Shown here one piece after another: positions 3,336 to 29,300 of a stretch of DNA of 64,000 nucleotides (positions within the stretch are counted from its first letter, which is position 1; every line of letters starts with the position of its first letter). Below the pieces are notes generated by a model, which saw only the letters and a program-made list of their open reading frames with translations, was not told the origin of the DNA and made no database searches. The position numbers and the translations under genes were made by a program. The DNA comes from Azolla caroliniana (Eukaryota; Plantae; Polypodiophyta), in assembly GCA_043228905.1 (NCBI GenBank), contig JBHGNT010000008.1, forward strand, positions 7,006,001-7,070,000, written 5' to 3'.

Positions 3336-3710
3336 TGTAAAGAATTAGATGGATTCTGTGCAGCAGAAGAACTGTGTGTGTGTGTGTGCAGAGAGAGAGA
3401 GAGAGAGAGAGGGAGGGAGGGAGAGCTCACGATTACAGAAAATAAGACAAACTGTATTACAAGGAAGCAAGAATGACCAACAGTTACAAAGAGAGGGAGA
3501 AGGTGCTTATGTAGTCACCTTCTCTCTAAGTTCTCTCACTAGTATTGCCTCTTGGGAAAGAGGTCGTGTCTTAACTACTTAAAGAATACGTGTCATAGGA
3601 CATTAACTTCTATGACACGTTAGTTACTATACAATGAGGTGGGGTGTTGACACACTTTAGTATCCTAGAGTGTGTTCCCACTCACGAGAAGTTGAGTTTG
3701 ATTCTCAACA
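3336..3710 (-). repeat. 3' LTR of copia A
   Basis: Direct repeat of 14161-14513 with about 30 substitutions by eye plus microsatellite indels; adjacent to the PPT. Confidence 0.95.
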
Positions 3711-6367: not shown

Positions 6368-6554
6368 TGTCGAATACAAGTGTATAATGGACGTATTCAC
6401 ACTATCCCTTTGTATAGATCAAGTTTGGGCCATTTGTGTAATTAGCATAAATGGTAGTTGCCCTAAGTCGGTCACTATATATAGTGACCTTGTAACCTTT
6501 TTGTAAGGGTTGGTTGTATTATTGGTTCTATTGAATAGAAAGAGTCTTTTGTGC

Positions 6555-6591
<37 letters not shown>

Positions 6592-6677
6592 ACGATCTCA
6601 GAAACTGTCATACGCAGGTACTCAACTTCGAATCGAATGCTATTTGATCTTCCGCATTGACGGCCTTCTTCCCAACA
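6368..6677 (+). repeat. 5' LTR of copia B
   Basis: TGTCG...CAACA, followed by the PBS. Confidence 0.97.
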
Positions 6678-7364
6678 TTTGGTATCAGAGCGAAGGTTCC
6701 TCAACCCGCTGTCGGCCGTCGTCTCAGCCTGCACAACGTTCGGTTTCTTGCATCATTCGAAGAAGAGAGAAGAAGAAGAAAAACGAGGCTTGCATCTCAT
6801 CGCGTTAGATCATCTTCGCTTGGAGTAAGCCAGCCGGTTGTACTCTGTTCCTTGTGATCGTAACCGCTCGAGGTGAAATCCCCTTGTGCAACATTGACAC
6901 GATCGTGCTCCACTCGGTTAAACGGCATCCGAAGAGGTCATCAAACGCTGCTCGCCGCTCATTGTAACCACTCGGTGCAGATCGGTCTCAAGACAACAAC
7001 CCCAATTCGTGCTTCATCCGGCTGATCGACATTCGGGAGGATCAGTTGGATCCGTCTCTCTCGTCGCTGCAGTCACCCGAAGCAGAATCGGTCCAGACAA
7101 TCGGTTTCAATAATCGGTATTCGGCATATATATTCGGAAGCGAACCGGGCTCACTCAGACTCGGCAACATTCGGGAAGACCAGTCGGTTCTGTCCCTCAA
7201 GTTACCGGAGTCAATTCGAGCAAGTTCAACAATACATATATTCGAAGCCGAACCGATTCGGGTTCAAATCCGACTAGAACGATATCGGGTGAGCCAACCG
7301 GCTGCACTCCAACAAGGTTCGTAGTCAACTCCGAACCGAGCTTCGTCAACCGAAACCAAATTTG

Positions 7365-10300
7365 ATGGCATCAACATCCGGCTCGTCAGAAATGAGTCTA
7401 CGAAAGTTCGATGGATCGAACTTCAATTTCTGGAAGGAGCAAATGCAAGACTATCTCATAGTCAAGGGGCAAATCGATCCCATCGAAAATGAAGAACCTC
7501 CAGAAGGATACAAACCAATTGAGTGGCAGAAGCTGGACAGAATCGTTCGCGCCACGATTCGGATGCACCTATCGGAATCGGTATACTTTACGGTGCAATC
7601 GTGTACGACAGCATTCGAACTGTGGAAAACACTGTCGGACACCTACGAAAAGAAGGTCGCAGCAACAAAGATGTTTCTGATCCGGCGCCTCTACAACTTG
7701 CGGATGAAAGAATCAGATTCGGTTCAAGCACATCTCAATGAGTACGAAAGCATAAGCTCCCAAATCTCATCTCAGGGGACGGCAATCGAGGATGAACTCA
7801 GAGCAATGATACTCATGAGCAGCCTTCCCTCATCATGGGAAACTTTCGTCACAACCGTGTGCAATGCGTCAACCACGGCTGTTAAATACTCCGAAGTCAC
7901 GAGCGCAATCCTAACCGAAGCAGCTCGGAGAAAGTCTTTCGCCAAAGACTCAACAGACGACGCTTATGTAGTACAAGGTTCGACAGACCGATCGAACATA
8001 CGAGGAAGAGATTCCTCACGGCAGCCGAACAATCAGCGAAGACGGAGCCAGTCACGGGATAACCGAATCTGCAACTATTGCAAGAAACCCGGACACATCA
8101 AAGCCGACTGCCGCGCACTCAAGAACAAGAACGACAAGTCTCAGAAATCAGACAAGAAGAGTGGTCGGCATGAGGAGATCAATTACGTCAGCTTCTCAGC
8201 TGATGTGCTACCAAACGACCCGAATATACTATCAATCGAAAATCCAGTCGGATCAGAAGTTCTGCTCACGACTGAAGAATCGAGCACATGGCTCTTAGAT
8301 TCGGGCACGTCATTTCACGTGACTCCTCATCGATCCCAATTTCGGCAATATACGATCCGTCACTCCGACTCAGTTCGAGTCGGCAACTCGCAACACTGCG
8401 ACATCATTGGAATCGGCACAGTAGAGCTCAACCTTGCAGGTGGCTCTACACTTGTACTTCACAATGTCCGACATGTACCCGAGCTCTCAAGGCCATTGAT
8501 CTCAGTCGGACAACTAGATGAAGACGGCATTCGTGCCGGTTTTTCTTCGGGAGGGTGGACACTCCACAGGGGGAACCTCCTGCTTGCTAGAGGACCCAAG
8601 ATACACTCACTGTATCCGTTACATGTTACGCTCAGAGAGGGTAACCTGTTTTTGGTGGATATTCCTGTGTCATCACTATGGCACAGAAGATTAGGACACC
8701 TCAGCAAGGCCGGCATTACGCACCTATCTAGAGCCGGATACATCCCTAAACTCTCCTTCTCGGACCATCAATTCTGCGAACATTGCCAGTATGGCAAACA
8801 AGCAGCCGCATCACACCCGACATCAGCACCAAGAGAAACGAGACCTCTCGATCTAGTCCACTCGGACGTCTGTGGCCCAATGCCGCATCAGTCTCTCGGC
8901 GGTGCCTCTTACTTCGTCAGTTTTATTGACGATTCGACTCGAAAGGTGTGGGCTTATCCAATTCGCACCAAAGATCGTGTCTTCTCGATCTTCTCCGATT
9001 GGCTCGCTATGGTGAAAAATCAAACTGACCGAAAACTGAAATGCTTTCGGACCGACAATGGGGGAGAGTTCAAATCAGAAGAATTCGTCAAATTCTGCCG
9101 ACAACGCGGCATCCGACGTGAATTTACGGCACCACACAGTCCGGAGCAAAACGGGATTGCAGAACGCATGAATCGGACAATCCAAGAACGGATAGTTTCC
9201 ATGCTCCAACACTCCGGACTGTCGGATGGCTTCTGGGCAGAGGCTCTACTCATGGCAGTACACATAATCAATATGTCGCCAAGCAGACCTCTAGGACTTC
9301 AAATTCCTCAGGAACTATGGATCGGCAGTAAGCCGAATTACGACAAGCTGAGGATCTTCGGATGTGAGGCGTACGCCCTTATTCCGAAAGATGATCGCCG
9401 AAAACTTGCACCTCGGTCCAGGAAATGCATTTTCCTTGGATATGGATCAGACGGCGAAATGGGATACCGACTCTGGACCCCGAACGCAGACAAATCGTTC
9501 GAAGTTCGGACGTTGTGTTCAACGAGTCGGCTATGAATCCATCAGTCAAAACACCGATCGAAGTCCGAAGGGTAACATTTTCCGATGTGCCGACCCTTCA
9601 AGAAGGCCCCGCTCTTAACACACGGTCAGCTTCACGGGTAGCTGAACCTTACACTACCGACTCGGACAACTCCGACTCGGCACAGCAGAATAATTCGCTT
9701 TCGGACCATCCGACCTCGATACCCGATACGACCAGTCCAGTCATACCTCGACGATCCGAGAGACTGTCGCAACCTCCGGAGAGGTATTCTCCTGGAATTT
9801 TCTTCACCGACGCTGGCGAACCGACGTCTTACGAAGAAGCATCGACATCTGTCGATTCAGCCACCTGGCATCTGGCGATGGAGTCGGAAATGCACTCCAT
9901 TCGGGCAAACAAGACTTGGGATCTGGTCGAACTACCTAAGAATCGACGTGCTCTTCCTTGCAAGTGGGTTTATCGACTAAAAGAGACGTCTGATTCGACC
10001 ACCCCAAAGTACAAGGCCAGATTAGTTGCGAAGGGCTTCCGACAAGAATATGGCGTCGACTTCGACGAGATTTTTTCACCAGTGGTGAAAATGACAACCC
10101 TTCGTTTTCTACTCGGCGTAGTGGCAGCCGACAACTTGGAGCTGATTCAGCTAGATGTCAAAACAGCCTTCCTCCATGGTGATCTTGAAGAGGAAATTTA
10201 TATGGAGCAGCCAAAAGGCTTCGTGGCAACTGGCCAAGAACATCTAGTCTGCCGACTCAGGAAGAGTCTATACGGCCTCAAACAGGCACCGCGACAATGG

Positions 10301-11395
10301 TACAAGAAGTTCGACGACTTCATCCAATCGATCGGCTTCTCAAAAAGCGATGAGGACCATTGTCTTTTTACCAACACAGCTCAAGATGGATCACGCATCT
10401 TCCTCATCATTTACGTGGACGACATGCTAATTTCTGGACGCCACGCGGGCGAACTTGCCGATCTCGTTCGGCAATTGCGGTTGAAGTTTGCCATGAAGGA
10501 CCTCGGTCCGGCACGACACATACTTGGCATGAAGATTAGTCGGCATCGCGATAAACGACATCTTTTTTTGTCTCAGACCGACTATATCGGACGTGTCTTG
10601 GAACGCTTCAACATGCAATCAGCCAAATCTGCTTCAACCCCGCTCCCCATGAATCTTCGGCTCTCTCAGCGAGACTGCCCGACATCCGGTCCAGAGGGGG
10701 AAGATATGAAGTCGGTACCGTATGCACCGGCAGTCGGCTCCCTTATGTACCTGATGGTCGCGACACGGCCTGATATTTCTCATGCCGTAGGAGTCGTTAG
10801 CAGATTTATGCACAATCCTGGCCGATCGCATTGGAACGCAATCAAGCATGTGTTCAAATATCTGGCTGGCACAAAAGACCACGACATTCTTTTCGGTCCG
10901 AACCGAACCTCAGGCGTAGTCGGTTACACCGACTCGGACTTCGCCGGCTGTATAGACAGTCGGAAATCAACAACCGGATACTGCTTCAAATTCGGCAATG
11001 GAGCAATTTCGTGGAAGTCGAAACTTCAGGAGTGCACAGCGACCTCAACGACCGAAGCAGAATATGTAGCTGCGTCCGACGCTGCAAAAGAAGCTTTGTG
11101 GCTCGGCCGGCTGGCGCACACGTTTCGGCAAGTCGACCATGACTCGGCTCTAGTTGTCTATAGCGACAGTCAAGGTGTTGTTGCCTTGTCGAGAAATCCG
11201 GTTCACCACAACGCCTCCAAACATATCGACGTTCGATATCACTTCGTTCGGGACTGCGTCATCTCAGGGAAAATCGGTCTAGAGAAAATATCCACAACCG
11301 ACAATGTCGCAGATGGAATGACCAAGTGTCTTTCGGCAGACCGCTTTCGGTCCCTTCGGCCTCAGATGGGCGTAACGACAAACCAGTCCGGTTAG
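7365..11395 (+). CDS. Copia B gag-pol polyprotein with a single 1-bp frameshift near 9475
   Basis: ORF 7362-9536 has Gag, CCHC knuckle CNYCKKPGHIKADC, protease WLLDSGTSFH and integrase (HSDVCGP, TDNGGEF, NGIAERMNRT). ORF 9425-11395 has RT (QLDVKTAFLHG, YVDD) and RNase H (SKHIDVRYHFVRD). One missing G in CTCTGGACCC breaks YRLWDPERR. Confidence 0.93.
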
Positions 11396-11998
11396 AGCCG
11401 GACACAGCGCAGGATGGTTTCAGACAACCGACATCAGTTCCCTAATGATCGGCTTCAACTCTTCCGACCCGACCAGTCCGGTCTTCTGCCTGCTTCAAAT
11501 TCGGCAATGGAGCAATTTCGTGGAAGTCGAAACTTCAGGAGTGCACAGCGACCTCAACGACCGAAGCAGAATATGTAGCTGCGTCCGACGCTGCAAAAGA
11601 AGCTTTGTGGCTCGGCCGGCTGGCGCACACGTTTCGGCAAGTCGACCATGACTCGGCTCTAGTTGTCTATAGCGACAGTCAAGGTGCTGTTGCCTTGTCG
11701 AGAAATCCGGTTCACCACAACGCCTCCAAACATATCGACGTTCGATATCACTTCGTTCGGGACTGCGTCATCTCAGGGAAAATCGGTCTAGAGAAAATAT
11801 CCACAACCGACAATGTCGCAGATGGAATGACCAAGTGTCTTTCGGCAGACCGCTTTCGGTCCCTTCGGCCTCAGATGGGCGTAACGACAAACCAGTCCGG
11901 TTAGAGCCGGACACAGCGCAGGATGGTTTCAGACAACCGACATCAGTTCCCTAATGATCGGCTTCAACTCTTCCGACCCGACCAGTCCGGTCTTCTGC
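10981..11998 (+). repeat. 509-bp tandem duplication of the RNase H/3' UTR segment inside copia B
   Basis: 10981-11489 is repeated at 11490-11998, with one difference seen (T11178 vs C11687). Confidence 0.95.
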
Positions 11999-12097
11999 CT
12001 TCGGACCCTGCCGACTCGAACAAAACTGATATGTCCGAGAACCTAGGTTTATACCTGTAATCTTAGATAACCCATGTATACGCCCATTACGGGGGAG

Positions 12098-12284
12098 TGT
12101 CGAATACAAGTGTATAATGGACGTATTCACACTATCCCTTTGTATAGATCAAGTTTGGGCCATTTGTGTAATTAGCATAAATGGTAGTTGCCCTAAGTCG
12201 GTCACTATATATAGTGACCTTGTAACCTTTTTGTAAGGGTTGGTTGTATTATTGGTTCTATTGAATAGAAAGAGTCTTTTGTGC

Positions 12285-12331
<47 letters not shown>

Positions 12332-12417
12332 ACGATCTCAAAAACTGTCATACGCAGGTACTCAACTTCGAATCGAATGCTATTTGATCTTCCGCATTGA
12401 CGGCCTTCTTCCCAACA
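12098..12417 (+). repeat. 3' LTR of copia B
   Basis: Preceded by the PPT and followed by the GTACC TSD. Confidence 0.97.
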
Positions 12418-14160
12418 GTACCGACAACCACTGAATGTTGTCGTTTGGGTTGGTCAGCATACATCTGAATGTAGTACATCCAGGATCCCTTTGCTTGTGT
12501 TCCTCTCCTTTGGGAATGATTGTTGGTGTTGTTTGCCGAATTGACAAGCTTCGCACACGACTGCAATTTCCTTTTTGGTGAAAGTCGAGAGTCCGGTTAC
12601 AACTCCTTTCAACTGCATTCCCTTAAGCTTTTGGAGATTAATGTGGCCTATCCTCTTGTGCCACAACTCTATGTCAGTGTCAGCTCTTTGGCCCTTGGCA
12701 TACATTGCCGAGTTCATTTCGTGAGAGTTGAGGATGAACATCTTACCTTCTCTCCGGTTGTGAGTGATAAGTTGGCCTTCTTTTTCAATGAAACAACCTA
12801 CATCGTTGAAGCGGACTTGCATGCATTGTTCGACTATCTGGCCAACTGAGACCAAGTTATTTGTTATTGTAGGAACATGCACAACGTTCTTGATGTATGT
12901 TTGGTTGCCTTCTTCCCCAAATGGGACATTGTCAATATGCTGAATGGGGTGAATTGTGTCATCCCCAGTTTCCACATAGCCGGGTCGTTTGGGCTTCCGT
13001 AGCTCCTTGAACCAATCCTTACGGGATGTCATGTGGTTCGATGCACAAGAGTCAACAAACCATACATCTTTTGGTTTGGAGGTGTTGGTCGGGTTTGAGG
13101 TTGTCATTGAGTGCGCTCTGTGCCTCATCACAAACATTCCGCCACAATTGTCGTAGTCGAAGTTGAAGGCGTAGTTTGTGAGTTGTCGGCTTGTGGAGGC
13201 CGACTCACTCTTCTTTTTTCGACTCTCTACCTCATAGTGGCCGAATTTAGCGCGATTGTTTTGTCATCTGGGTCCAGCTTGATTGCTCCCCCTTCTCCCG
13301 GACGCTCCGCCTCGCGTGTTCGAGACGTCTTGTCGGTAATAGAAGTTGTGTTCTCAGGGTTGCTCTTGGTTGTCTCGGCCTTGGCCAAATCGGCCTCTTC
13401 TTCCCCTACCTTGTCCTCTTCCTCCATCGAAGTTCGAATAGAGCAACAACATGATTCTCCTGGACTAGCAACATCGAATGGAGATCAAAGAAGGAGGGAG
13501 GATTCTCTCTCACGAGGACAACCGACCGAATGGCCCCGAACCGAGGTGCTAAGCCTCTAAGGCAAATTTGCACCATTTCATCGTCGTCAATGCTAACATT
13601 GATCGACCCGAGGGCATCGCACAACTCCTTGATCTTCAAGGTGTAGGTGTTGATTGACACGTCCCTCTATTGTATACCGTTCAACTCTTGACGGAGTTGA
13701 AGCTTTCTTGCAGTCGTGTTGGCCGCAAAAATCTTCTTGAGGTTCCCCCATGCCTCCTTCGACATTTTGACCTCTCGAATGTAGTCAAGCATATGATCAT
13801 GGACACATGATGCAAGGCAGTACAACACACGACTCGACGCTTGCTCCCAAGCTAGGTAGTTGGCATGTGTTGGGTTGGGTTGATTCTCGTTTGCCCCTTC
13901 GACATAACTCCAATAGCCTTGGCCGACAAGGTATTGCTGCATCTTATACTCCCAAGATTGAAAGTTGTTTTTGTCAAACTTTTCGGTAGGAAGAACATTT
14001 CCCATTTGTGTGTTCATGTTGAGCTTCTTCTTCTTTTTCTTGATATGAACTCTGCATATGGCTGCTACAACGATCAATCGGTTCTTGTCGAACGTAGAAT
14101 CAGGCACAACACATGCAGAGGCAATGGGCTTTGATCAAGCAACCACGCACTCTGATACCA

Positions 14161-14513
14161 TGTAAAGAATCGAATGGATTTTGTGCAGCGGAAGAAGTGT
14201 GTGTGTGTGTGCAGAGAGAGAGAGAGAGAGCTCACGATTATAGAAAATCAGAAAAATTGTATTACAATGAAGCAAGAATGACCAACAATTACAAAGAGAG
14301 GGAGAAGGCGCGTATGTAGTCACCTTCTCTCTAAGTTCTCTCACTAGTACCACCTATTGGGAAAGAGGTCGTGTCTTAACCACTTAAAGAATGTGTCATA
14401 GGACATTAACTTCTATGACACACTAGTTACTATACAAGGAGGTGGAGTGTTGACACACTTGAGTATCCTAGAGTGTGTTCCCATTTAGGGGAAGTTGAGT
14501 TTGATTCTCAACA
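14161..14513 (-). repeat. 5' LTR of copia A
   Basis: Adjacent to the iMet-type PBS at 14151-14160 and followed by the CCTAG TSD. Confidence 0.95.
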
Positions 14514-14518
14514 CCTAG

Positions 14519-16861: not shown

Positions 16862-16889
16862 CTTCCACCCCATAGAGAAGCACCAGTAT

Positions 16890-17341
16890 TGTCATGATAT
16901 GGCAAGACTCGAACCCATGACCTTAGGTTATATGGGTCGAGCTCTTGACCATTAGATCATCTAATGTAATACGTAGGATATTATTTTCATTTACATTTTA
17001 CTATAGGAAATTAGTGTATATTCTAGATTTCTCTGGAACATTCTAGAAGCTTCAGGATTACTCCTGAAAACACTCTAAAAGAGGGCACTAGGCATTATGT
17101 TGAACCAAATTGGTTCAACGCCAGTCTTAAGCCTTTTAGCCACCATTGTATATTCTCTTCATATAATACATATCTTTCTTATCATCACTGTCACTCTCTC
17201 TCTCACTCTCTCTCTCTCAATCTCTCTCTTTCACTCTGTCTCGCTCACTTCTTCCTTCTCTCGAAGAAGTTCCACACCTCTCATAGTACTAATCCTTCAT
17301 TTAGTACTAATTCCTTCTCTGTCTCAGTACTGTTCATGACA
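16890..17341 (+). repeat. 5' LTR of chromovirus C
   Basis: Direct repeat of 21728-22159. Confidence 0.96.
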
Positions 17342-17343
17342 GT

Positions 17344-17355
17344 TTGAACCAATTT
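17344..17355 (+). promoter_or_regulatory. Putative self-priming primer-binding site of chromovirus C
   Basis: TTGAACCAATTT, 2 nt after the 5' LTR, is the exact reverse complement of AAATTGGTTCAA at 17107-17118 in the LTR. There is no TGG start typical of a tRNA-complementary PBS. Confidence 0.75.
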
Positions 17356-17415
17356 CTCTTACCTTCTGTCTCTCTCATTTCCTACTAATATTTTATTCCT
17401 CTTTTCTTTCATCCC

Positions 17416-18576
17416 ATGGCCACTGTTAGCGCTGAAGAATATCAATCTGTTTTCTCAGAATTTCAATGCTTGAAGGAGAAGTTCCATGCTTTGGAACAAG
17501 AAAACCAACGGTTGCTGGGGGATCTTCAGCAAATCTCCTTAGAAAAGCAGCAAACGCAACAACAACATGGGGAACTTGCGTTACGCGTGCAACAACTCGA
17601 AGCAACCATCGTAGCGATGCAACAACAAAGGCCCGGAACACAAGGGATTCATAAAGAACCCAAGATTGGCCTTCCCACGAAGTTCAATGGAACGCAATCG
17701 CAGTTTAGAGGGTTCCTTAACCAGGTACGATTAGTTATTCAAATGCATCCTTCTCGATATCCCACCGATGCATCACGAGTGGGTTTAGTAGGCACTTTGT
17801 TAAGTGGCTCAACATTGTCATGGTTCGCTCCACTATTAGAAAAATAATCTCCGTTACTCAACAATTTTGAAGAGTTTCTAGGTGAGTTTAAAGCATGTTT
17901 CGGAGATACTGACAGCATTAGGACTACAATCAACAAAATCCGGCGATTACGCCAAGGTGACCGTCCAGCCTACGCATATGCTGCAGATTTTCGCCTACTC
18001 GCCGCCGATATTCCTTGGGATGATCAAGCGTTGATGGAGCAATTCCGTTATGGTTTACGCAACGACGTCAAGGATTTACTATTGACCTTCCCCGAAGAGC
18101 CAAAGTCCTTAACAGAAGCAATCAGTCGCGCAGTGAGATGTGACAACCGCCTCTTTGAGCGACGTTCGGAACGACAGCTACAAATGCTGAGGGCAAGATC
18201 AGAGCCCACCTACGCCTCAGTGGTAGCAAGACCTTTTCCGAGGGAGTCATATAATGCGCCTCCAACGAATACTCCGACTCCGATGGAGATTGACACTACA
18301 CGTCGTCGAGGGCCATTATCTGAAGAAGAAAAGCAGCGACGCCGTACAAATCGACTATGTCTTTACTGCGGTGGACCAGGACATATCGCAATAAATTGCC
18401 CCCATAGGCCAAGAAGACAGGTAAACCAAATAGTCGCTAGTTCTAATTGTACTAAATACGTGGCTATTTCAGTAGGGATATCTGATAGTCCTAATAGTAC
18501 TAATAGTACTAATATCCCAGATCTAGCAAACAAATTTGATGTCCTTAGTCAGTTAGAAGAAGAGTTAAACGACTAA
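17416..18576 (+). pseudogene. Chromovirus gag (PEG10/retrotransposon-gag-like) with one premature stop
   Basis: Coiled-coil N-terminus, LPTKFNG..FRGFLNQ, in-frame TAA at 17845-17847, then LRQG..YAADFR, PMEID and CLYCGGPGHIAINC knuckle. Confidence 0.9.
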
Positions 18577-18616
18577 GTCCAGCCAAAATAGGAGCCGTTT
18601 GGTTGGACAACCCTAG
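18564..18616 (+). promoter_or_regulatory. Putative -1 programmed ribosomal frameshift signal at the gag-pol junction
   Basis: G_TTA_AAC in the gag frame at 18564-18570, a 6-nt spacer containing the gag stop, then an 11-bp stem GTCCAGCCAAA/TTTGGTTGGAC (one G-U pair). The -1 frame is open to 18914. Confidence 0.7.
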
Positions 18617-18697
18617 ATTTGTGCAGCCGATTAGTGGTTCCATTCCCTCTAAGCAAGTTAGTGATGTGTTCGTAGCCCAAGTAATAGTCAGTACTAA

Positions 18698-21684
18698 AAA
18701 TACCCCTCCAGCACCACTAAAGAAGAATCCACTATTCAACTTCCCGAGAAGTATCGTCATTACGCCGATGTGTTCGATAAAGTACAAGCCAACACACTTC
18801 CTCATCATCGACCGTACGATTGCCCCATCGTATTACAATCGGGAAAAGAGCCGCCATGGGGACCGATCTACAATTTGTCACCAACCGAGCTGGAAGTCCT
18901 TCGGGCCTATATAGAGGAGAATTTGGAAAATGCTTTCATTCGGCATTCGAAATCTCCAGCCGGCGCGCCCATTTTCTTCGTAAAGAAAAAAGATGGATCG
19001 CTTCGTCTCGTTGTAGATTACCGTGGCTTGAATAAGGTTACAATCAGGAATAGGTATGCTCTTCCCCTTATCTCAAGTCTTTTAGAACGGATCAATGGTG
19101 CCAGGTTCTTCACGAAGATCGACTTACGGGGAGCATATAGCCTCGTACAGATTCGACCAGGAGACGAATGGAAGACCGCGTTTCGCACCAGATATGGGAA
19201 CTTCGAGTATACGGTCATGCCGTTCGGCCTCACTAATGCGCCAACAATCTTCCAGCACATGGCTAATGATATATTCCAAGATCTATTGGATGATTGTTTG
19301 ATCATCTATTTGGATGATCTACTGGTTTATTCAAAGACCCAAGAAGAACATGATTCTCATGTACTATTAGTACTAAAACGGCTTCGAGAACATGGTCTGT
19401 ATGCAAAGCTGGAAAAATGTAGTTTCAGGTGCAACCAAGTGGAATTTCTCGGCTACATCATTTCGTCAGAAGGCATCTCCATGGACCCAGCTAAGGTCAA
19501 AACGGTGGTAGAATGGCAGACTCCGCGTTCGGTGCGGGATGTGCAATGCTTCTTAGGCTTTGCCAATTTTTACCGGAAGTTCATACAAGATTACTCAAAG
19601 ATCATTCTACCTCTCACACAACTTACCAGGAAGGGACAACCGTTCATATGGTTTGAAGAAACGGACATGGCTTTCGAGAGTCTTAAAAAGGCATTTACAT
19701 CGGCTCCAATTCTAGCTCATGTCGATCTGGAAAAACCATTCATTATCGAAGCTGACGCATCGGATTTTGCATTGGGGAGCATTCTGTCACAACAGGGGAA
19801 TGATGAGAAGTTACATGTGGCTTTTCACTCACGCAAGTTTGACGCCGCCGAAATCAATTACGAAATTCATGATAAGGAGCTATTGGCAATAGTGGATTCT
19901 TTTATGCAATGGAGGCATTTTCTGGAGGGATCCTCTCATCCAGTCACCGTATTTAGTGACCACAAGAATCTTGCCTACTTTCAGGATGCTCGTGTGTTGA
20001 ATCGACGTCAAGCTCGATGGGCCCACTTCCTCACGCCTTTCGACTTCAAAATTACATATCGTCCGGGGAGGCACTAAGGGAAGGCAGATGCATTATCACG
20101 ACGTTCGTATCTAGCACCCCGTCCCGGCGAGCCAGCTTTCGATAACCAAAAACAAGTCATCTTGGGACCGACACGACTACAAGCAACACAGATCTTTGAC
20201 ATGCCTATGGATTCCCGCGTTATCGATACCATACGTGAAGACTTGAAGACAGATGTGTTTGCCCAAGCTATACTAGCACAAATTGATCCCTCTCGAGCGT
20301 CGTGTTCACAGTCGCAACCACCAGGTACAGACTATCGGCAATTCAAATACCATGATGGATTACTCTTCTGTAAAGAACTTTTGTATGTTCCTAATGGTTC
20401 TTGCCGCCTTCGAGTAGTACAAAACTGTCATGACACATATACAACTGGGCATTTTGGTAGTACTAAAACATTACATTTAGTACAACGAACATTCTGGTGG
20501 CCCTGTATGCAACAAATTGTCGAGGATTTTGTTCGGACTTGTGATACATGTTGCAGAGCAAAAATGCCAAGGCATCATCCATATGGTTTATGAGAACCAT
20601 TACCAATTCTAAGCAAGCCGTGGCAATCCATTGCTCTAGACTTCATCACAGATCTTCCAGTCTCTAAGGGTTCAATGCGATTCTAACGGTGGTCGATCGA
20701 TATACGAAGATGGCTCATTTCTTGCCATGTACTAAGGAGATCTCCAATGAAGACACTGCCGAAATTGTCATGCGTGAAGTATGTCAGCATCATGGACTTC
20801 CCGATAGTATCATCAACGACCGTGGACCCCAGTTCATGTCAAAATTCTGGAAGCACCTTTTTAACATGCTCAAGGTCACTTGTAACCTCTCCTCCGGCTA
20901 CCACCCACAAACTAACGGCCAAGCTGAATGAACAAATCAAACGTTAGAGCAGTATTTGCGGTGCTTTCTCAGCTATCATCAAGATGACTGGGCAAATATT
21001 CTCCACTTCGCCGAATTTGCCTATAACAACTCTATCCACACATCCACTAAAGTTACGCCATTTTATGCTTATACGGGATGTCACCCCCGATGGAGTGTAT
21101 TTGAAACCCCAGAGGTTTCCACAAATCCGTGCGCGGAGGATCGTTTGGAGCAGTTATGCACGATACAAACGGATTTATCTACTCATCTCCAGCAAGCTCA
21201 ACAAACACACAAGGTCTACGCAGATCGTCATCGACTTCCATCCAGTTTTAATATTGGAGATCGGGTGTGGCTGCTACGACGACACATCAAGACTACTCGT
21301 CCATGTGAGAAGTTAGATTATCGGCGATTAGGTCCTTTCCGTATTATTGGACAAATTAATGATGTTGCTTTTCGTCCCGATCTACCTCCTCAACTTCGGA
21401 TACATCCGGTGTTTCATAGTTCTCTCCTCGAACCCTACCACGAGAGCACCATCCCAGGATGTCTTATCCAACCTCCACCCCCGATCGAGCTTGAAGATGG
21501 GCCGGAGTATGAGGTTGCCGCCATCCTTGATTCCAAGATTGTTCGCAACAAGCTCTACTATCTAGTCGATTGGCTAGGCTATAGCCCCAGCGAACGTACT
21601 TGGGAACCGATCGAGAATGTGACCAATGCTCGTGCTCTTCTTGAAGACTTCCATCATCAATATCCACACAAACCAGGTCCTTAA
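18698..21684 (+). pseudogene. Chromovirus pol (RT, RNase H, integrase, chromodomain)
   Basis: APIFFVKKKDGSLRLVVDYRGLNK, YLDD, EADASDFALG, integrase HHCC and DRGPQF, and chromodomain EYEVAAILDSK...YLVDWLGY...TWEP. Stops at ~20075, 20591, 20929 and 20945; frameshift near 20670. Confidence 0.93.
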
Positions 21685-21727
21685 TGCAAGACGACTCGTG
21701 ACAGTTGTCGTTTTAAAGGAGGGATAG

Positions 21728-22159
21728 TGTCATGATATGGCAAGACTCGAACCCATGACCTTAGGTTATATGGGTCGAGCTCTTGACCATTAGATCATCT
21801 ATTGTAATACGTAGGTTACTATTTTCATTTACATTTTACTATAGGAAATTAGTGTATATTCCAGATTTCTCTGGAACATTCTAGATGCTTCAGGATTACT
21901 CCTGAAAACACTCTAAAAGAGGGCACTAGGCATTATGTTGAACCAAATTGGTTCAACGCCAGTCTTAAGCCTTTTAGCCACCATTGTATATTCTCTTCAT
22001 ATAATACATATCTTTCTTATCATCACTCTCTCTCTCAATCTCTCTCTTTCACTCTGTCTCGCTCACTTCTTCCTTCTCTCGAAGAAGTTCCACACCTCTT
22101 ATAGTACTAATCCTTCGTTTAGTACTAATTCCTTCTCTGTCTCAGTACTGTTCATGACA
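21728..22159 (+). repeat. 3' LTR of chromovirus C
   Basis: Follows the PPT and precedes the AGTAT TSD. Confidence 0.96.
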
Positions 22160-23029
22160 AGTATCACCAAAGTGTCGAAATCTTGAGGACCCAACACTTA
22201 ATATCTCCATGATTGCATGTGTTCTCAAATGCACAGTATGCTTGCTTACCCGGCCTTTATGGGATGTGTAACACATTCATTGTATCTATGATTTGAAAGA
22301 ACTTTAAGGCCAAGATATTTGAAGCTTTCCACATATTCAAGTGGCTCATTATTGTACGTAATGCATGATTTATCTCTTTTTTGGCTCTTCACAAACATAT
22401 GATCTTTGTTTTAGAGTAATTGACACTTAATTTAGTATGCATGCAAAAAATTTCTAATGACAACATTCCCAACGGGAACTCCTTCAACACATTCTTCCTT
22501 TACAAACTTGGCAACTATTTCTTCCAATCTATCAATGCATAGACCAAATAAGGTTGGTGAGAGTGGGCATCCCTTAACACAAATAGTGCTATTGAAAAAA
22601 TATAAAAGTTTATCGCTCATAGGCACACAACATATACCCTTCTTATATATTCGTGAAATTGCAAGCATATATTATTCACTTGGCACCTTCAGTTCTTCCA
22701 TTCGCCTCGAAAGATGCATGAGGTACCATATCAAAAGCTTCCTTAAAGTCTACGAATCAACAATTTAAACCTTTACCTCTAAGGCGACTTTCCTTCAGCA
22801 ATACTCGAAGGGGGTGACAAGGTGATCAATGATGCTATGATGTTTTTAAAAGCCAGCTTGTCCATAAGCTCACTCACCATTTAATGTGCGGGTTGCGAGC
22901 GAGTGTTTCGTGGTCAGCTCGATCTTTCAGATGATCTCTTCACGTGTCCTCGCACAACTGAATGTGTGAGTGACCAGAAGAAGCTAGACCCATCAGATAA
23001 GGCCGCCCAATCATCCCGGGTTTCTTCTG

Positions 23030-23346: not shown

Positions 23347-26300
23347 ATGTCTCCCTCACAGCCGGAGAAGCGGCATCGCCTTGCACAGACACAGACCGTG
23401 GTCTCCCCTTCTGAGGAAGAGCAGCAGCAGCATCATGATCATGATCATAAGAAGACGAAGAAGAAACGGCAGAAGACAGAAGACAACTCGATGGAGATGG
23501 AGGTTCAAACCAACCCTAATTTCTCTGAATCAGTATCTGCATCTCTTCCTCCCGACTCCCTTTCAGCTCTAAATCTCCTCAGACTCATCAAGAACCGTGA
23601 TATAGCTCCTGAGAGGTTTGCCATCATCATCATCATCATTATCCGTTTCTATGTTTTGTTTCTCCTTGCTCAGAAATATGAGCTATTTTGACAATGCACA
23701 AAATCGAAGGATATGTTTTAATGTTTTCATTTTTCTTTCTCTCTGTTTGTTTTTGAAAATGTCTTATATCAACCGTACACTGCAAATAACTTCTGTATCC
23801 AATGTTTTTTTTTTCCTTGAAAAACTGGGTTATAAATATAAAGTCCAATCCAGTGCTGTGCAAAGTAATCCAAAAGAAGCACAGAATTAGATTGAATGCA
23901 CTTTTTAGCTCTCTATTAACTGTACACGAAATCCATAAAAAAATTGGATGCCTTTCTCCTATTTTACAATAGAAAACTAAATTGTACAGTCGATCTGAAG
24001 CTGCATTTCTTATCAATCCAATGTTGTGAAAAACAACTGAAAAGAAGCACAGAATTGTATTAAATGTACACCTTAGTTTTCTATTAGTTGTACACAAAAT
24101 CTCTCAAATTATGCTCTTTTTCTGGAAAACGGATTATGTTAGACGAACATAAGTCCATTGCTATGGAAACAATTTTATTTATCTATTTATTTAAAAATCA
24201 ATTTTTATATGAAATGCACACAAAGGTCATCAGAATCATTGTGTAGCTTAATCTTGAAGTAATTAGAGAATAAAACAAATTTGTGCTTTAAATGATTCTA
24301 TGTGTTCATGTCATGTTCTTCGTTTGGAAGCATGTTTCATAAAACAAACTTTATTATCTGCAAATGTCATATGGTTACTCCAAAGTTGCTGCTTCAAAAC
24401 GATTCTTTATTTTCCTGGAACAGGAAAGTTGAACAGGCATATGGTTTTATTACACATGGGAGCAGTATATTGAGTACAAACAGAGAATCTGTTCATTCTA
24501 TCGAAAGTGGATTGGTACCCCGGTATCACTTAGTCACATCCCTCTCTGAATGGGTACAGGGATTGATAATCAATTCCTCGAAATCTTATCCTACAAACTC
24601 TATTGTGGAGGATAAGGGAAAGCCTTTTCACGAAAGTATTTTGGAGAGAACTGTTGCAACATATCTAGATATACGTTGTTGGGCTATTCTCAAATGGTGC
24701 TTGGCTTCAGGTATTCCTTGGAATGTGGGCTTTGTCTCACTAGGCATACTGCAATCTCTCTCTCGTTTACTAGATGAGGCTTACACCTTGGTGTCTCAAG
24801 ATGCATTATTCTATAGCAGAGGTAACAACATTAAGAAGACCGATCGAGATAATGGAAGGAGATATTTCACAGAAGATTTTTTTGCAGCAGTACATGATGT
24901 TGCTCATCTACTATTTTGCAGATATGAGGGGCTTTTTAGACCAAAGCTTGATTTATGGGTTCCTTCTACAATTTCATGTTTAAGGATCGCTTCTGTATTT
25001 TGCTCATCAACATATATTGAAAACAATGGGAATATACTTTTTGATCTAAGTATTCTTGTTTTACGGCGTTTTGTTTCTTTTTTGAGATCATCTCCTAATC
25101 CTCGCAAAGTCTTTCAGTCTGTTGTAGATAAATTGCTTGAAAGTCTTCTTAGCTTGCTAGGAAAATTTAGCTTGGCAGGTGCTGATGATGAGAAACAGAA
25201 AATATTGGGTGTTGTTGAAGATATACTGAAGCATAGCCTGTTTCATCGATCCCATTTGGAGGGTTATCAGAATGTGTGCAAATTGTTGAAGCAATCCGGG
25301 TCACATATTGATGATATCATCCCAAAGGATGAACCATCCACTAATAGTAGTAAGGAAACGCTTACCTTTTTGAGCTATCACAAATTATTGTTTCAGAAGT
25401 TGGATTATTTTGTTAAGGAAAGGAAGGTTTTTACTTTAAAATCCATAGCCTGGATATTCAGGACTTATATACAAGAAGTTAAAACTCAGATGGTTCTAAA
25501 GTCTTCAAACTTACTTGGTTCAAGGAATAAGCAACTTTCTAGGATTGCTGCATCTAAAAAATCTCTTGGTTTGGCGGACCAACTGCCCGATCAGGATACT
25601 GAATCAGGGATTGATCATCATGAAACAAAAAAGGGTCCTGAGAGAATAGTTTTCTTTGCTGTCTTCACAGAATTCATCTCCCCATTGTTGGAGGAATTTG
25701 AGGCTTCATCGCACATTTGCTTCTTGAAGAATGAACTTACAGTAGAAAATCTTACAATATTAAAGTCTTTAATGAATTCAACTAACAATCTTCTCTTGGT
25801 AGCAAAAGAAGAGCAGATTTATGTGCCAACAGAGGACACGCCAACTCTTATGAATCTAGACTTTATCAAGAAGATATACAATATTTTTACTGATTTTAAC
25901 ATGGCTCTGCAAAAGTTCTATGCTCAAATAACATCAGGAAACTTGAGCAATATTGGGAATGAAGAAATCCAAGTCCTGTTAATGGAAGTCCTAAATGGTA
26001 CTTTTATAGGCATCAATCATATTCTGGAGCTTGAGTACAGAGTGCTTGAAAATGACTTGGAAAAGATATGGATGACGGTTTTCTTTATGGCGGCATTCCA
26101 ATTTATGTTGGGAAGTGCAAGTGCACAGTTGGTCTCTGTTACTGAGAGAGCAGTCAATTTAGCTTCAAGGATTCTGACAATTTTCAGTGAACTAAGGCAG
26201 GTCAGCCTACCCTACCCTTGATAGGTGTTCCAAATTGTGCCACAAAGGTTTCAACTTTCTCTGACAGGAAGATTCATCATCATAATATACTAGCTCTTTT

Positions 26301-29300
26301 CTGTACGGCATGCATTTCATTTTGAAAACATATGGCTCAATGGGTTTTGAGCATATATGAATATGATAGGATCTTGAGTAACATTTCACTGATGAGTTAT
26401 CTTGCTTTCTTTTTTATCAGATTGATCGAGTGATATTGAGTTTATGCGATTTTCTGAGATACATAACTCGACTGGAAAATCCCCTATCTTATCGAGTAAA
26501 GCTTTCAAGGAAAGCTTTAGAAGCAATCTTACTCTCCAAACATTTCCTTATGGTTCTGTCTTCAGTGATACAAGAGATACCTGAAGGCCAAGTAGCTTCG
26601 TTCATGAGATTACTTGGTGAAGACATGGAACAGACCTTGAAAATGATACAATCAAGCATCGTTCATCCGACAGACAGGCACAAAAGATTGCAGAAAACTT
26701 CTATTAAAGTGATCACAGAGACATATGTCTGTATTCTTGACCAGGGAAATGTCACTGCCTCTAATAGTGTACAGTTTGGGGCATCATTGAGGACATTGAT
26801 GGATAGAAGTTTGATCCCTTGTTTAGGTGTTTTAGTGGACAGTGTGTTAAGTGATGATGACATGACTGGCATGTATACTAGGTTTACACATGCACAGTCT
26901 GAAAATAGTGGTAGTCCAATAGATCTTCAGCATATATGTCCAACCAATAAACATGATGATTCCAGTACCACTGTTTCACTAACATGGGCATTTATTCTTC
27001 GCCTCTATATATCAGTCAAGTGTTTGCATAGAAGATGCGTCACTTTAATGCCCCCAAAGGCGGCAAGAAAGGGTAGCATCTCTGCAAATGATACTACGCT
27101 TGTGTTATACACAGGAGAACAGACCAAAGTTGAAGACTTAATAGTTAATGAATGCTTCTTTTCCTGTGCGAGGAAGGGGGATATTTCTGTCCTGGATGTT
27201 CTATCTAGTATTTATAAGTGGATTGAAACAACAAAACAAAACAAGGTAGAACCATTGGAGTATACCCTACTTTGTATTGGAGTTCAGAGCCTTGCTGATT
27301 TAAAGAGGCAAATTAAAGCCGTTCATTATACGTTAGTTGAAGCAGATCTGGGAACATTAGATAGCTCTTGTAAGAATAATAAGGAAAAGCTTGCAACAAA
27401 TCAATCAAATCTTTGCCACAAAAAGTCTTTACAAAAATTTCACAAGAAGCTTAAGAGGAAGGCTGTGGCTATTACCAGTTTTTTGTTACAATGGATTAAA
27501 GATTTATTGGGAAAAGAAAAAAGATTTCAACCTAAGAGAAAATCTTCAGGACAGATAGATTCTTGGCACATTCCTGAAGTAACTTGGAATAAAGTAGTTA
27601 CAAACCTTAATAGTCAAACACTGCCAGTAGCAAGATGGGGTTTGATTTGTCAGAATCTTGGTGTTTGGTCAGAATTTGCTAACAGTGACGATTTAAAATT
27701 ATTTACCCAATTTATGCTTGGGTTCACAATATCATTGGACAATCATACTAATGATGGTAAGGAATGCTGCAATGTCTTTTCAATCACTAAAGATCTTCTG
27801 AACACAGACTCATTCTATGAGGAGAAGGTAATAGTTGATTCTTTTTGGTAAGGTAATATTTACACTAAGATGTAAATTTTATATATTTGTTACTTTTGGT
27901 TTCATGATATTTTTGATACTTTTGTTTTTTGTGCAATTCTTCTAGATAGTGAAATCTGGTTCCCCCCTACATTTGGTTTCAAATAGAGCCTTGGGACATA
28001 TGATTATGTGGAGTTAAACTATATGCATGTGGGTAAATATTTTCTAAAGGTTATCTCACTTGGAAGTTGAGAAGCAGTCATATATTTACCATCGTACTAT
28101 GAAATTGAGAAAGGTGACCTGAAACTTTAATTCCATATGCTACCAGGTGTACTTCCACACATCTGCTCAAGATGCAAATAAAATAAAGAACATGTAAAAC
28201 CACAAATTGTACTGTTCTGTCCTTCATCATCTTCATTGTGTCTCAAATGACTAGATGACCTGAGACCTTTCTTCTGACCACCATCTATCTATCTGTCTAA
28301 TAAATAATTATTCTTTCTTCCTGAATTTCCAAATTTACTGATAGGGTTATGTGTGAAAAATTTGCCAGCATATATATATAGATGATGAAGAAGGGCTAGT
28401 ATCCTTATATGTCATTAACTCAGTGATACTGTTATTCTTCAGGTTTAAGCTCCTTACATATCTTTCCATACATTACCTGATAGTCTACTTAGTTGACTCT
28501 TGACACACGTGGATGCATAATGATGTTTTGGTAGTGAGTAAAATGCTTGAGCATTTTAGAGAATTCCTTGTGATGATACTTTGATTCTAGTTTTTCCATT
28601 TATTCAATGATCACCTGCCCTTCTCTTCTTGGCTGTATACCGGTGATCCTACATTTTACTCACACAATGATATAAATAAATTTATTTTATAAAATACTTA
28701 TGACATCGATCAATATCAAGATTGGTTTAGAGCATTTTAGCCACCTGTCCAGGTCATAAATCCTGTGGTGCAATTATAACGTTTATTCTGGAATAGAAAT
28801 GTTGAATCTCTATTGATCACTATGTGAATGTTTATTCACTTTCAATGTTAACCAAAATTTGATAATGTAAATGTCTGTGTAGGTGGTTCGGGAAATATTT
28901 TTACAAGAACTATGCCAACAGCTGGAAGACAATCTATGCCTGTCTAAACTCAAGCTACCAATTGAATCAGCAATTAATTATATCCAGACTCAACTTGGTA
29001 CTAGGAATACTTATTCAAACTTCAATAGGAGTCATGCAATTTGTTCAGAAGCCCATGAAGTGTTTGAAGACTGCAGCTTAAACTTCACAAACATTAATTC
29101 TGTGAAGCTGTCAAAGTGTGTGCAATTGATGAATTTAGTTTCAAAGTTTCCCAATGGATACATAGAGACAGAATCTGTACCTACATTCATTAGCTTTGTC
29201 CTTCGCCTTGAAAGGTAGTTTTGACCAGGTCGATCTTATGTTTGATATATATTCTGATTCTGATATTTTAATCTTTATTCAGGTGTATTGTGCTTTTGAT

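What the first reader, a model, noticed from the sequence alone, without database searches (positions are those of the whole stretch)
16895..16965. Antisense tRNA-like A-box/B-box cassette folded into a hairpin at the start of both chromovirus LTRs
Seen: the minus strand reads TGATCTAATGG-TCAAGAGCTCGACCCATATAACCTA-AGGTC-ATG-GGTTCGAGTC. This gives an A-box-like motif (16949-16959), a typical AGGTC variable-loop motif and a B box GGTTCGAGTC (16906-16915) at tRNA-like spacing. The same ~50 nt form a long imperfect hairpin (CAAGA-CTCGA-ACCCAT-GACC/TTA/GGTT-AT-ATGGGT-CGAG-C-TCTTG) rather than a cloverleaf. The core is identical in the 3' LTR (~21739-21798), so it travels with the element. Established: Cassandra TRIMs carry 5S-derived Pol III promoters in their LTRs. 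Inference: a coding chromovirus captured a tRNA/SINE head that could drive antisense Pol III RNA (from the 3' LTR into the PPT and chromodomain region), act as a TFIIIC-type chromatin boundary, or template hairpin small RNAs.
Basis: partly seen in the sequence, partly recalled or inferred. Interest (0 to 1): 0.78.

Follow-up and report, generated by a model that had tools for sequence, protein, structure and literature searches.

The report
tRNA relic refolded in retrotransposon LTR
Both end repeats of a high-copy plant retrotransposon begin with a backwards stretch that carries tRNA-type promoter boxes at tRNA spacing and is likely a captured tRNA piece; it is predicted to fold as one long hairpin rather than as a tRNA, the family's variation weakly favours the hairpin over the promoter as the part being kept, and transcription from it is untested.

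Summary
The element (16890-22159) is a broken Tcn1-type, self-priming chromovirus of a plant. The minus strand of the first 70 bases of each LTR maps onto tRNA numbering without a gap from T8 to C61. The variable-loop and T-arm 18-mer scores 25.5 bits, reached at 0 of 10^8 simulated positions. The A box is weak; it turns up at the right distance in 0.05-0.8% of fold-back simulations. The stretch is not a tRNA: Rfam, ARAGORN and my own covariance model give no significant hit. It is predicted to fold as a 20-pair hairpin (z -3 to -6) whose axis is not a tRNA's. Common family variants avoid both stem arms. The boxes are not shown to be better kept than their neighbours, this copy's subfamily has lost A-box G10 while gaining pairing, and there is no nearby terminator. 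Identity between the two LTRs is expected and proves nothing. Best reading: a tRNA/SINE-derived relic, likely kept as a hairpin beside the polypurine tract. An active antisense Pol III or TFIIIC site stays possible (about 25%). Closest known: Helenus TRIMs, which are non-coding; the one LTR I checked is sense. A new variant of a known kind.

The parts
16890..17341 (+). 5' LTR, 452 bp, TG...CA
21728..22159 (+). 3' LTR, 432 bp; 7 substitutions and one 20-bp microsatellite indel against the 5' LTR
16885..16889 (+). target-site duplication, left copy (AGTAT)
22160..22164 (+). target-site duplication, right copy (AGTAT)
16949..16959 (-). A-box-like motif, tRNA positions 8-19; A at position 10 in this copy, G in most family copies
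16906..16923 (-). tRNA variable loop, T-stem 5' strand and B box (positions 44-61); identical to the same stretch of real phage tRNA genes
16899..16952 (.). predicted hairpin core: arms 16899-16919 and 16931-16952, 20 pairs, three single-base bulges; this copy adds an inner stem and an outer stem (16894-16898 with 16956-16960)
21787..21797 (-). A-box-like motif in the 3' LTR
21744..21761 (-). variable loop, T-arm and B box in the 3' LTR
21737..21790 (.). predicted hairpin core in the 3' LTR; this is the copy that would lie in the genomic RNA, starting 9 bases behind the polypurine tract
21715..21727 (+). polypurine tract
   Evidence: sequence read directly
17107..17118 (+). predicted self-primer (5' end of the transcript), inside a 9-bp inverted repeat at 17099-17119
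17344..17355 (+). primer-binding site, exact 12-base complement of 17107-17118; no tRNA-type site
17416..18576 (+). gag with zinc knuckle, interrupted by one stop
18698..21684 (+). pol remnants: RT, RNase H, integrase, chromodomain (21508-21657); stops and frameshifts; about 160 codons including the protease are missing near 18700

Best explanation
The first 70 bases of each LTR of this Tcn1-type chromovirus family are likely a tRNA- or SINE-derived piece inserted backwards, which is predicted to fold as one long hairpin instead of a cloverleaf and is likely kept for that hairpin, next to the polypurine tract, rather than as a working Pol III promoter. Shown: tRNA-type boxes at exact spacing, no cloverleaf, 19 of 22 columns complementary between the two halves, presence throughout the family, absence from the more distant relatives examined. 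Inferred: one capture in the family's ancestor, copied to both LTRs by reverse transcription. Inferred: the anticodon arm and the acceptor 3' strand were then overwritten by copying from the opposite half (fold-back template switching; mechanism recalled, not tested), while both boxes survived as the strands that were copied from. Inferred: the hairpin acts in the 3' end of the genomic RNA, or in single-stranded cDNA, as a structural signal for plus-strand priming, strand transfer or packaging.
For: Origin: positions 44-61 score 25.5 bits on a matrix from 67 prokaryotic tRNAs (median of those tRNAs 22.9); 0 of 99,999,300 simulated positions reach it, and the best elsewhere in the window is 15.9. 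In the phage collection 10 of 12 records hit this word; I opened one record of each of the 4 lineages, and all 4 hits lie in tRNA genes or tRNA-shaped relics. An A box as good as the common family type appears at tRNA spacing in only 0.2-0.8% (matrix) or 0.05-0.24% (eukaryotic pattern) of simulated fold-backs. Hairpin: self-complementarity 14.5 against a maximum of 9.0 among 87 real tRNAs. Of the 40 best-supported variants in four DNA runs, 30 distinct positions fall in 16890-17145 and none in the 42 arm positions 16899-16919 and 16932-16952, where about 5 are expected (p about 0.005 by my arithmetic, one test chosen after seeing the data). The non-box arm shows 11 minority letters in 450 cells (2.4%) against 4.5-14.6% in the eight other segments. 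This copy's subfamily has two changes (16926, 16957) that both add pairs (-29.7 against -25.7 kcal/mol for the commonest types); one of them removes A-box G10. In run X22 a 5-letter insertion behind 16902 lies outside the A-B interval and would still let the stem form (read by eye).
Against: No two-sided compensatory change was seen: 0 of 20 pairs in 16 distinct rows, and that test is nearly blind because 16 of the 17 rows match the 33-base search pattern that covers the 5' arm. Counted by site, the non-box arm is not clearly quieter: 3 of 21 sites with a shared variant, against 41 of 203 in the rest of U3-R. A stem-breaking variant at 16934 holds 21% of depth in X22 and one at 16911 10% in X1. 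The A-box variants mostly stay inside the degenerate positions (9 purine, 11 pyrimidine, 12 any), and T8, A14, G18, G19 are kept in 81 of 82 cells, which fits promoter constraint as well. The relatives examined lack the hairpin, so it is not needed by such elements in general. Transitions that give G-U pairs occur on both strands, so the strand on which it folds is not determined. All tRNA models were prokaryotic; no host tRNA or SINE was available to name a donor.
Confidence: 0.45

Rival explanations
1. The boxes are alive: TFIIIC binds the start of U3 and either drives an antisense Pol III RNA that folds into the hairpin and runs on into the polypurine tract and chromodomain region, or acts as a boundary without much transcription. 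The hairpin was shaped around the boxes, which is why its bulges fall on box residues.
For: Exact tRNA spacing with no common indel between the boxes (one 1-base deletion in 2% of depth). B-side score above the tRNA median. Family A box fits TRGYNNARYGG in the common types. The bases left unpaired include A-box 12-14 and one T of the B box. A CAA triplet 7 bases before T8 is kept in 15 of 17 loci. Helenus shows that LTRs do capture such promoters (PMC10886601).
Against: C56 and A14 vary more than neighbouring stem sites. A subfamily without G10 holds about 27% of depth in X1. Only three T's lie at the polypurine tract; the first T4 is about 880 bases out in this copy, 515 in L003, 36 in the rearranged L002 and beyond 600 in L013 and L016. 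The CAA lies at +1..+3, not at -10..-3 as in plant tRNA genes (PMC13578239, passage). The orientation cannot make the element's own genomic RNA.
Confidence: 0.25
2. The cassette is a passenger. A tRNA piece (possibly only the T-arm half) entered U3, fold-back copying produced and keeps repairing the inverted repeat, and neither boxes nor hairpin do anything.
For: No compensatory change. Site-level conservation not above background. The LTR holds other inverted repeats (17021-17069, 17099-17119), so it is prone to form them. Absent from relatives.
Against: Common variants avoid both arms in four runs, the cassette is intact in a more distant organism (X22), and an A box at the right distance is unlikely from fold-back alone.
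Confidence: 0.17
3. The tRNA likeness is chance inside an ordinary LTR palindrome.
For: No covariance-model hit. A scan of many windows will surface rare motif matches. Three other GTTCRA cores occur in this LTR and its primer site.
Against: Per-position chance under 3e-8 for the B side, times under 1% for the A box, gives under about 2e-7 for a 450-bp LTR read on both strands. The best B-side score in 807,418 positions of 79 related retroelement loci is 17.4.
Confidence: 0.07
4. The plus-strand RNA uses the 5' arm to anneal to the T arm of a host tRNA, as the 3' part of the Ty3 primer site does, to aid circularisation or strand transfer; the 3' arm masks the site until then.
For: The plus strand is the exact complement of 18 bases found in real tRNA T arms. 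Ty3 binds tRNA-iMet at its RNA 3' end through 12 and 11 bases (PMC11381356, passages).
Against: This element primes itself. The site is buried in a stem of about -25 to -30 kcal/mol. No host tRNA with this T arm has been identified.
Confidence: 0.06

Closest known systems
Helenus / TRIMp3 (Kojima 2024, PMC10886601; main text parts 1-4 of 6 and supplement passages read)
   Same: tRNA-derived sequence inside both LTRs; conservation pattern TRG.. YGG and GGTTC; not a functional tRNA; proposed origin by SINE insertion into an LTR; 5-bp TSD in the plant case. The paper also says that 'not a few' Repbase LTRs hold tRNA-like parts, of which only TRIMs were followed up.
   Different: Helenus are non-coding, 311-1263 bp and tRNA-primed, and in the one Helenus plant LTR I read (Helenus-1_SMo) the boxes are sense with an intact T arm. 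Here the element is 5.3 kb with gag-pol and a chromodomain, self-primed, the boxes are antisense at the U3 edge, and the two halves pair as a rod.
Cassandra TRIM (seen only through the introduction of PMC10886601)
   Same: Pol III internal promoter sequence inside an LTR of a plant element.
   Different: 5S-derived, non-coding, and shown to drive the element's own RNA; none of this holds here.
Tcn1-clade chromoviruses (REXdb, PMC6317226, passages and supplement rows; SM-Tcn1, PMC2864245, passages and supplement S3)
   Same: Self-priming site, 5-bp TSD, chromodomain with aromatic cage residues, closest RT relatives of fungal and Tf1/sushi type, strong likeness to SM-Tcn1 proteins by eye.
   Different: The SM-Tcn1 LTR has tandem repeats and no GTTCRA core (read by eye); none of 14 putative LTR starts of other Ty3/gypsy relatives has the cassette. 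It is a family-level gain.
Ty3 bipartite primer-binding site (PMC11381356, passages); HIV-1 U3-R tRNA-like insert (recalled, no call)
   Same: Sequence complementary to internal tRNA arms at the 3' end of a retroelement RNA.
   Different: Those elements are tRNA-primed and the Ty3 site is mostly unpaired; here it is self-primed and the site is paired.
Palindrome region of maize Sirevirus LTRs (PMC4728375, abstract and outline)
   Same: Hairpin-forming inverted repeats in the regulatory part of a plant LTR, proposed source of small RNAs.
   Different: Copia elements, fast-evolving multi-palindrome region, no tRNA origin reported in the abstract; small RNAs not tested here.

Membership tests
tRNA gene (RF00005) | Covariance-model or ARAGORN score above threshold | tested here: not met
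   No RF00005 hit at E<=10; ARAGORN 0 in the window and 0 of 29 copies at thresholds 100 and 90, 4 of 29 at 80; own CM: window copies not among 9 hits at E<=10, family copies at most 10.8 bits, E>=0.32
tRNA gene (RF00005) | Acceptor, anticodon and T stems | tested here: not met
   Block layout: anticodon and acceptor stems do not pair; the T stem pairs only if three bases after C61 are looped out
tRNA-derived type 2 Pol III promoter | B box | tested here: met
   25.5 bits, 0 of 10^8 simulated positions
tRNA-derived type 2 Pol III promoter | A box at tRNA distance | tested here: inconclusive
   Spacing exact; score 2.3 bits in this copy, 3.7-11.3 in the G10 loci that keep the region, tRNA median 15.9; chance 0.05-0.8% for the common type, 2-5% for this copy's type
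tRNA-derived type 2 Pol III promoter | Boxes better conserved than neighbours | tested here: inconclusive
   positions 16890-16910 could not be scored without bias
tRNA-derived type 2 Pol III promoter | Nearby oligo-T terminator | tested here: not met
   First T4 about 880 bases beyond the 3' LTR edge; 36, 515, >600, >600 in 4 loci with the tract
tRNA-derived type 2 Pol III promoter | TFIIIC binding and Pol III transcription | not testable with these tools
   Only assembled contigs were offered; 2 contigs in X23, 0 in X24, no strand
Helenus / TRIMp3 | tRNA-like sequence in both LTRs | tested here: met
Helenus / TRIMp3 | Short, non-coding element | tested here: not met
   5270 bp with gag, RT, RNase H, integrase, chromodomain
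Helenus / TRIMp3 | tRNA-primed PBS | tested here: not met
   12-base self-complementary site
Helenus / TRIMp3 | Promoter oriented to make the element's own RNA | tested here: not met
   Boxes are on the minus strand, facing out of the LTR
Tcn1 chromovirus | Ty3/gypsy domain order with C-terminal chromodomain | tested here: met
Tcn1 chromovirus | Self-priming site and 5-bp TSD | tested here: met
   REXdb row: self-priming 83%, TSD 5 bp
Tcn1 chromovirus | Placement in the Tcn1 clade on an RT tree | not tested
   No tree built; named RT hits are fungal, amphibian, fish and reptile; likeness to SM-Tcn1 judged by eye

The most novel reading that the evidence does not exclude
A protein-coding chromovirus family has turned a captured tRNA promoter into a dual device at its U3 end: TFIIIC binds the DNA, Pol III transcribes backwards, and the RNA folds into a 20-25-pair hairpin built around the untouched A and B boxes, giving the element its own antisense or small-RNA control, or a portable chromatin boundary spread over very many copies and solo LTRs.
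Probability: 0.2. Interest if true: 0.75.

Novelty: new variant of a known kind. Interest (0 to 1): 0.42.

Why it matters
tRNA-derived promoters in LTRs are described for small non-coding elements. A case in a coding, high-copy chromovirus family, backwards and rebuilt as a hairpin, shows a further route by which Pol III signals enter LTRs. If TFIIIC binds, every copy and solo LTR would be a potential Pol III site or boundary in this plant genome. If only the hairpin matters, it is an example of a host RNA gene fragment recycled as a retroelement cis structure. Neither function is shown, so present interest is moderate.

Tried and rejected
No genome is held for the window, so host tRNAs, SINEs and an unbiased set of copies were out of reach. 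RF00005 could not be run on the metagenome records; own models were built instead. Viral contigs gave no relatives by protein or by the 3' arm pattern. RNA: X23 gave 2 low-depth contigs (2.8 and 3.4), one with a head-to-tail joint, X24 gave none; contigs show neither strand nor ends, so this is no evidence either way. One search lists no substitution before 16911 or after 16958, and it omits a near-fixed difference at 16964 seen, so its edges were evidently not scored; I draw nothing from 16890-16910 there. A link between the tRNA 3' end and the LTR end (the numbering ends within one base of the LTR edge) was rejected as evidence, because three distant relatives also start with TGTCATG. A 12-of-13 match near the LTR start of L090 was set aside: its B-side score is at most 1.1. 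A free-standing SINE or MITE was not seen: in all 27 loci the stretch begins at the LTR terminus, which the search pattern forces, so this is untested. The host clade was not settled: the neighbouring Urb2-type gene is 24% identical to angiosperm proteins and 38-50% to unnamed ones. No isoacceptor could be assigned (ARAGORN pseudo-calls disagree).

Full report
The element. The finding lies at the start of the 5' LTR of a 5270-bp LTR retrotransposon (16890-22159) with LTRs of 452 and 432 bp, TG...CA ends and the target-site duplication AGTAT. Pfam finds gag, zinc knuckle, RT, RNase H, integrase and a chromodomain. The copy is broken by stops and frameshifts and lacks about 160 codons including the protease. 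It has no tRNA primer site: 17344-17355 is the exact complement of LTR bases 17107-17118. Self-priming, a 5-bp duplication and the chromodomain fit the Tcn1 clade (PMC6317226, passages and supplement rows). I built no tree. The host is a plant, probably non-seed; the clade was not settled, and earlier AI notes on this genome disagree between moss and fern.

The observation. On the minus strand they follow tRNA numbering without a gap from T8 (16959) to C61 (16906). The stretch is predicted to fold as a hairpin on either strand, z -3.1 to -6.1 in seven folds. That it is identical in both LTRs says nothing: 7 of 432 sites differ, so a 74-base identical run has probability 0.30.

Is it a tRNA? 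No. Rfam gives no tRNA hit at E<=10 on 651 or 96 bases. ARAGORN finds none in the window and 0 of 29 copies at thresholds 100 and 90. A covariance model from 50 prokaryotic and phage tRNAs does not list the window copies among 9 hits at E<=10 and gives 22 family loci at most 10.8 bits.

Is it tRNA-derived? Likely. A sequence-only profile from 87 tRNAs, after removing the two that contain the exact word, ranks the two LTR copies first in the window (15.6 bits, next 9.1); a second model agrees (E 0.003). Both local alignments cover mainly the 3' half. Positions 44-61 score 25.5 bits, reached at 0 of 99,999,300 simulated positions. In the phage collection, 10 of 12 matching records hit this word; one record from each of the 4 lineages was opened, and all four hits are in tRNA genes or tRNA-shaped relics. 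The A box is weaker: 2.3 bits here, about 7 in the commonest family type, against a tRNA median of 15.9. I tested the main alternative, that the 5' half is only a fold-back copy of the LTR's first 30 bases. With four indels and two substitutions, such copies give an equally good A box at tRNA distance in 0.2-0.8% of 200,000 trials per setting, 0.05-0.24% with a eukaryotic pattern recalled from general knowledge, and 2-5% for this copy's poorer box. All models were prokaryotic, and no host tRNA or SINE was available, so no donor is named.

The hairpin is not the tRNA's own fold. Positions 15-36 pair with 49-68 in 19 of 22 columns; the score is 14.5 against at most 9.0 in 87 real tRNAs. The axis lies about 10-13 bases away from that of the acceptor and anticodon stems. 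So the anticodon arm and the acceptor 3' strand have become complements of the B-box and A-box regions. Fold-back templated copying would do this (recalled; search listed no paper that I read on it). Selection for pairing would also do it.

What the family keeps. The family is abundant: 2615-4253 contig pieces were laid on the LTR in each of four DNA runs from three organism labels, and a fourth organism carries it. Depth there is no copy number. Of the 40 best-supported variants shown (58 more hidden), 30 positions fall in 16890-17145 and none in the 42 arm positions, against about 5 expected. Among 27 metagenome loci found with the first 33 LTR bases (biased on that arm), I dropped 4 rearranged loci and 1 duplicate. 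In the other 22 the non-box arm has 2.4% minority letters against 4.5-14.6% elsewhere, but by sites with a shared variant it is 3 of 21 against 41 of 203. No pair shows a two-sided change (0 of 20). For the boxes the picture is mixed. T8, A14, G18 and G19 are kept in 81 of 82 cells and variation sits mostly at positions 9 and 12. But C56 is changed in about 10% of depth in X1, A14 in 6% (X1) and 55% (X22, 9 contigs), and G10 in 27% (X1) and 3% (X22). This copy belongs to the subfamily without G10; that change and a second at 16926 both add pairs. There is no terminator near the cassette. No usable RNA data were available.

How far it reaches. In 79 more distant Ty3/gypsy loci (403,726 bases, RT identity 35-67%) the best profile hit is 8.7 bits and the best B-side score 17.4; none of 14 putative LTR starts has the cassette or a comparable hairpin. 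The closest locus, L032, yielded no LTR. The SM-Tcn1 LTR has no B-box core by eye. The cassette is therefore a gain of this family, not a Tcn1 feature.

Mechanism. I commit to a tRNA- or SINE-derived relic, captured antisense once, rebuilt as a hairpin and likely kept for the hairpin at the 3' end of the genomic RNA, 9 bases behind the polypurine tract (0.45). Rivals: live TFIIIC/Pol III site (0.25), passenger (0.17), chance (0.07), Ty3-like tRNA-annealing site (0.06). Sequence, spacing, complementarity and distribution are shown; origin, remodelling route and function are inferred.

What is known. Helenus TRIMs carry tRNA-derived sequence in their LTRs, and the same paper notes that other Repbase LTRs hold tRNA-like parts that it did not follow up (PMC10886601, parts 1-4 of 6 and supplement passages). 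This element fails Helenus membership on size, coding, priming and orientation. Ty3 has tRNA-complementary segments at its RNA 3' end (PMC11381356, passages). Sirevirus LTRs have hairpin regions (PMC4728375, abstract). Plant tRNA flanking signals were taken from PMC13578239 (passages). Nine searches (listings only unless named above) showed no description of an antisense tRNA-like hairpin in a Tcn1 LTR. Subscription journals and Repbase were not searched, and five .DOC supplements of PMC2864245 could not be read; they may describe moss Tcn1 LTRs. Earlier AI notes from this scan report similar antisense tRNA relics in other retrotransposons; they are unchecked leads and suggest that such captures recur.

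Verdict. Observation confirmed, interpretation partly supported, new variant of a known kind, interest 0.42.

Noticed in passing
window 17099-17119 and 17344-17355: The self-primer sits inside a perfect 9-bp inverted repeat, so the primer-binding site also repeats the sequence just upstream of the predicted start; both carry GTTCAA cores.
   Followed up: partly
SM-Tcn1, supplement S3 of PMC2864245: Read by eye, 15 bases just after its 5' LTR are the exact complement of LTR positions about 392-406 of that record, so it looks self-priming although the paper found no primer site.
   Followed up: partly
window 21696-21735: A second predicted hairpin encloses the polypurine tract and pairs upstream sequence with the first LTR bases; the upstream arm is similar in L002, L013 and L016 but not in L003.
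   Followed up: partly
window near 18695-18710: About 160 codons including the protease are missing in this copy relative to P0005 and P0008; whether this is a multi-copy non-autonomous derivative is unknown.
   Followed up: partly
window 3336-14514: Nested LTR elements: a minus-strand copia-like element (LTRs 3336-3711, 14161-14514) holds a plus-strand copia (LTRs 6368-6677, 12098-12417) with a 510-bp tandem duplication at 10981-12000.
   Followed up: no
window 7253-7277: A B-box-like word inside a short inverted repeat in the 5' leader of the inner copia; second-best tRNA-profile hit, 9.1 bits, E 0.08.
   Followed up: partly
window 24296-32605: Host gene of the Urb2/Npa2 type (PF10441 on 3 of its 4 relatives) with very long exons.
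   Followed up: partly
L030:1466-1530 and L031:266-326: Unannotated, shortened tRNA-shaped sequences in Lactococcus phage P078 (47.5 bits) and Microbacterium phage BAjuniper (35.4 bits).
   Followed up: partly
L032-L110: 79 loci in GTDB prokaryote genomes encode eukaryotic-type Ty3/gypsy reverse transcriptases, most likely binning contamination.
   Followed up: no
run X23, record 17: One 116-base contig of depth 2.8 joins two copies of the cassette head to tail with 12 bases between; tandem copy, circle or artefact.
   Followed up: no
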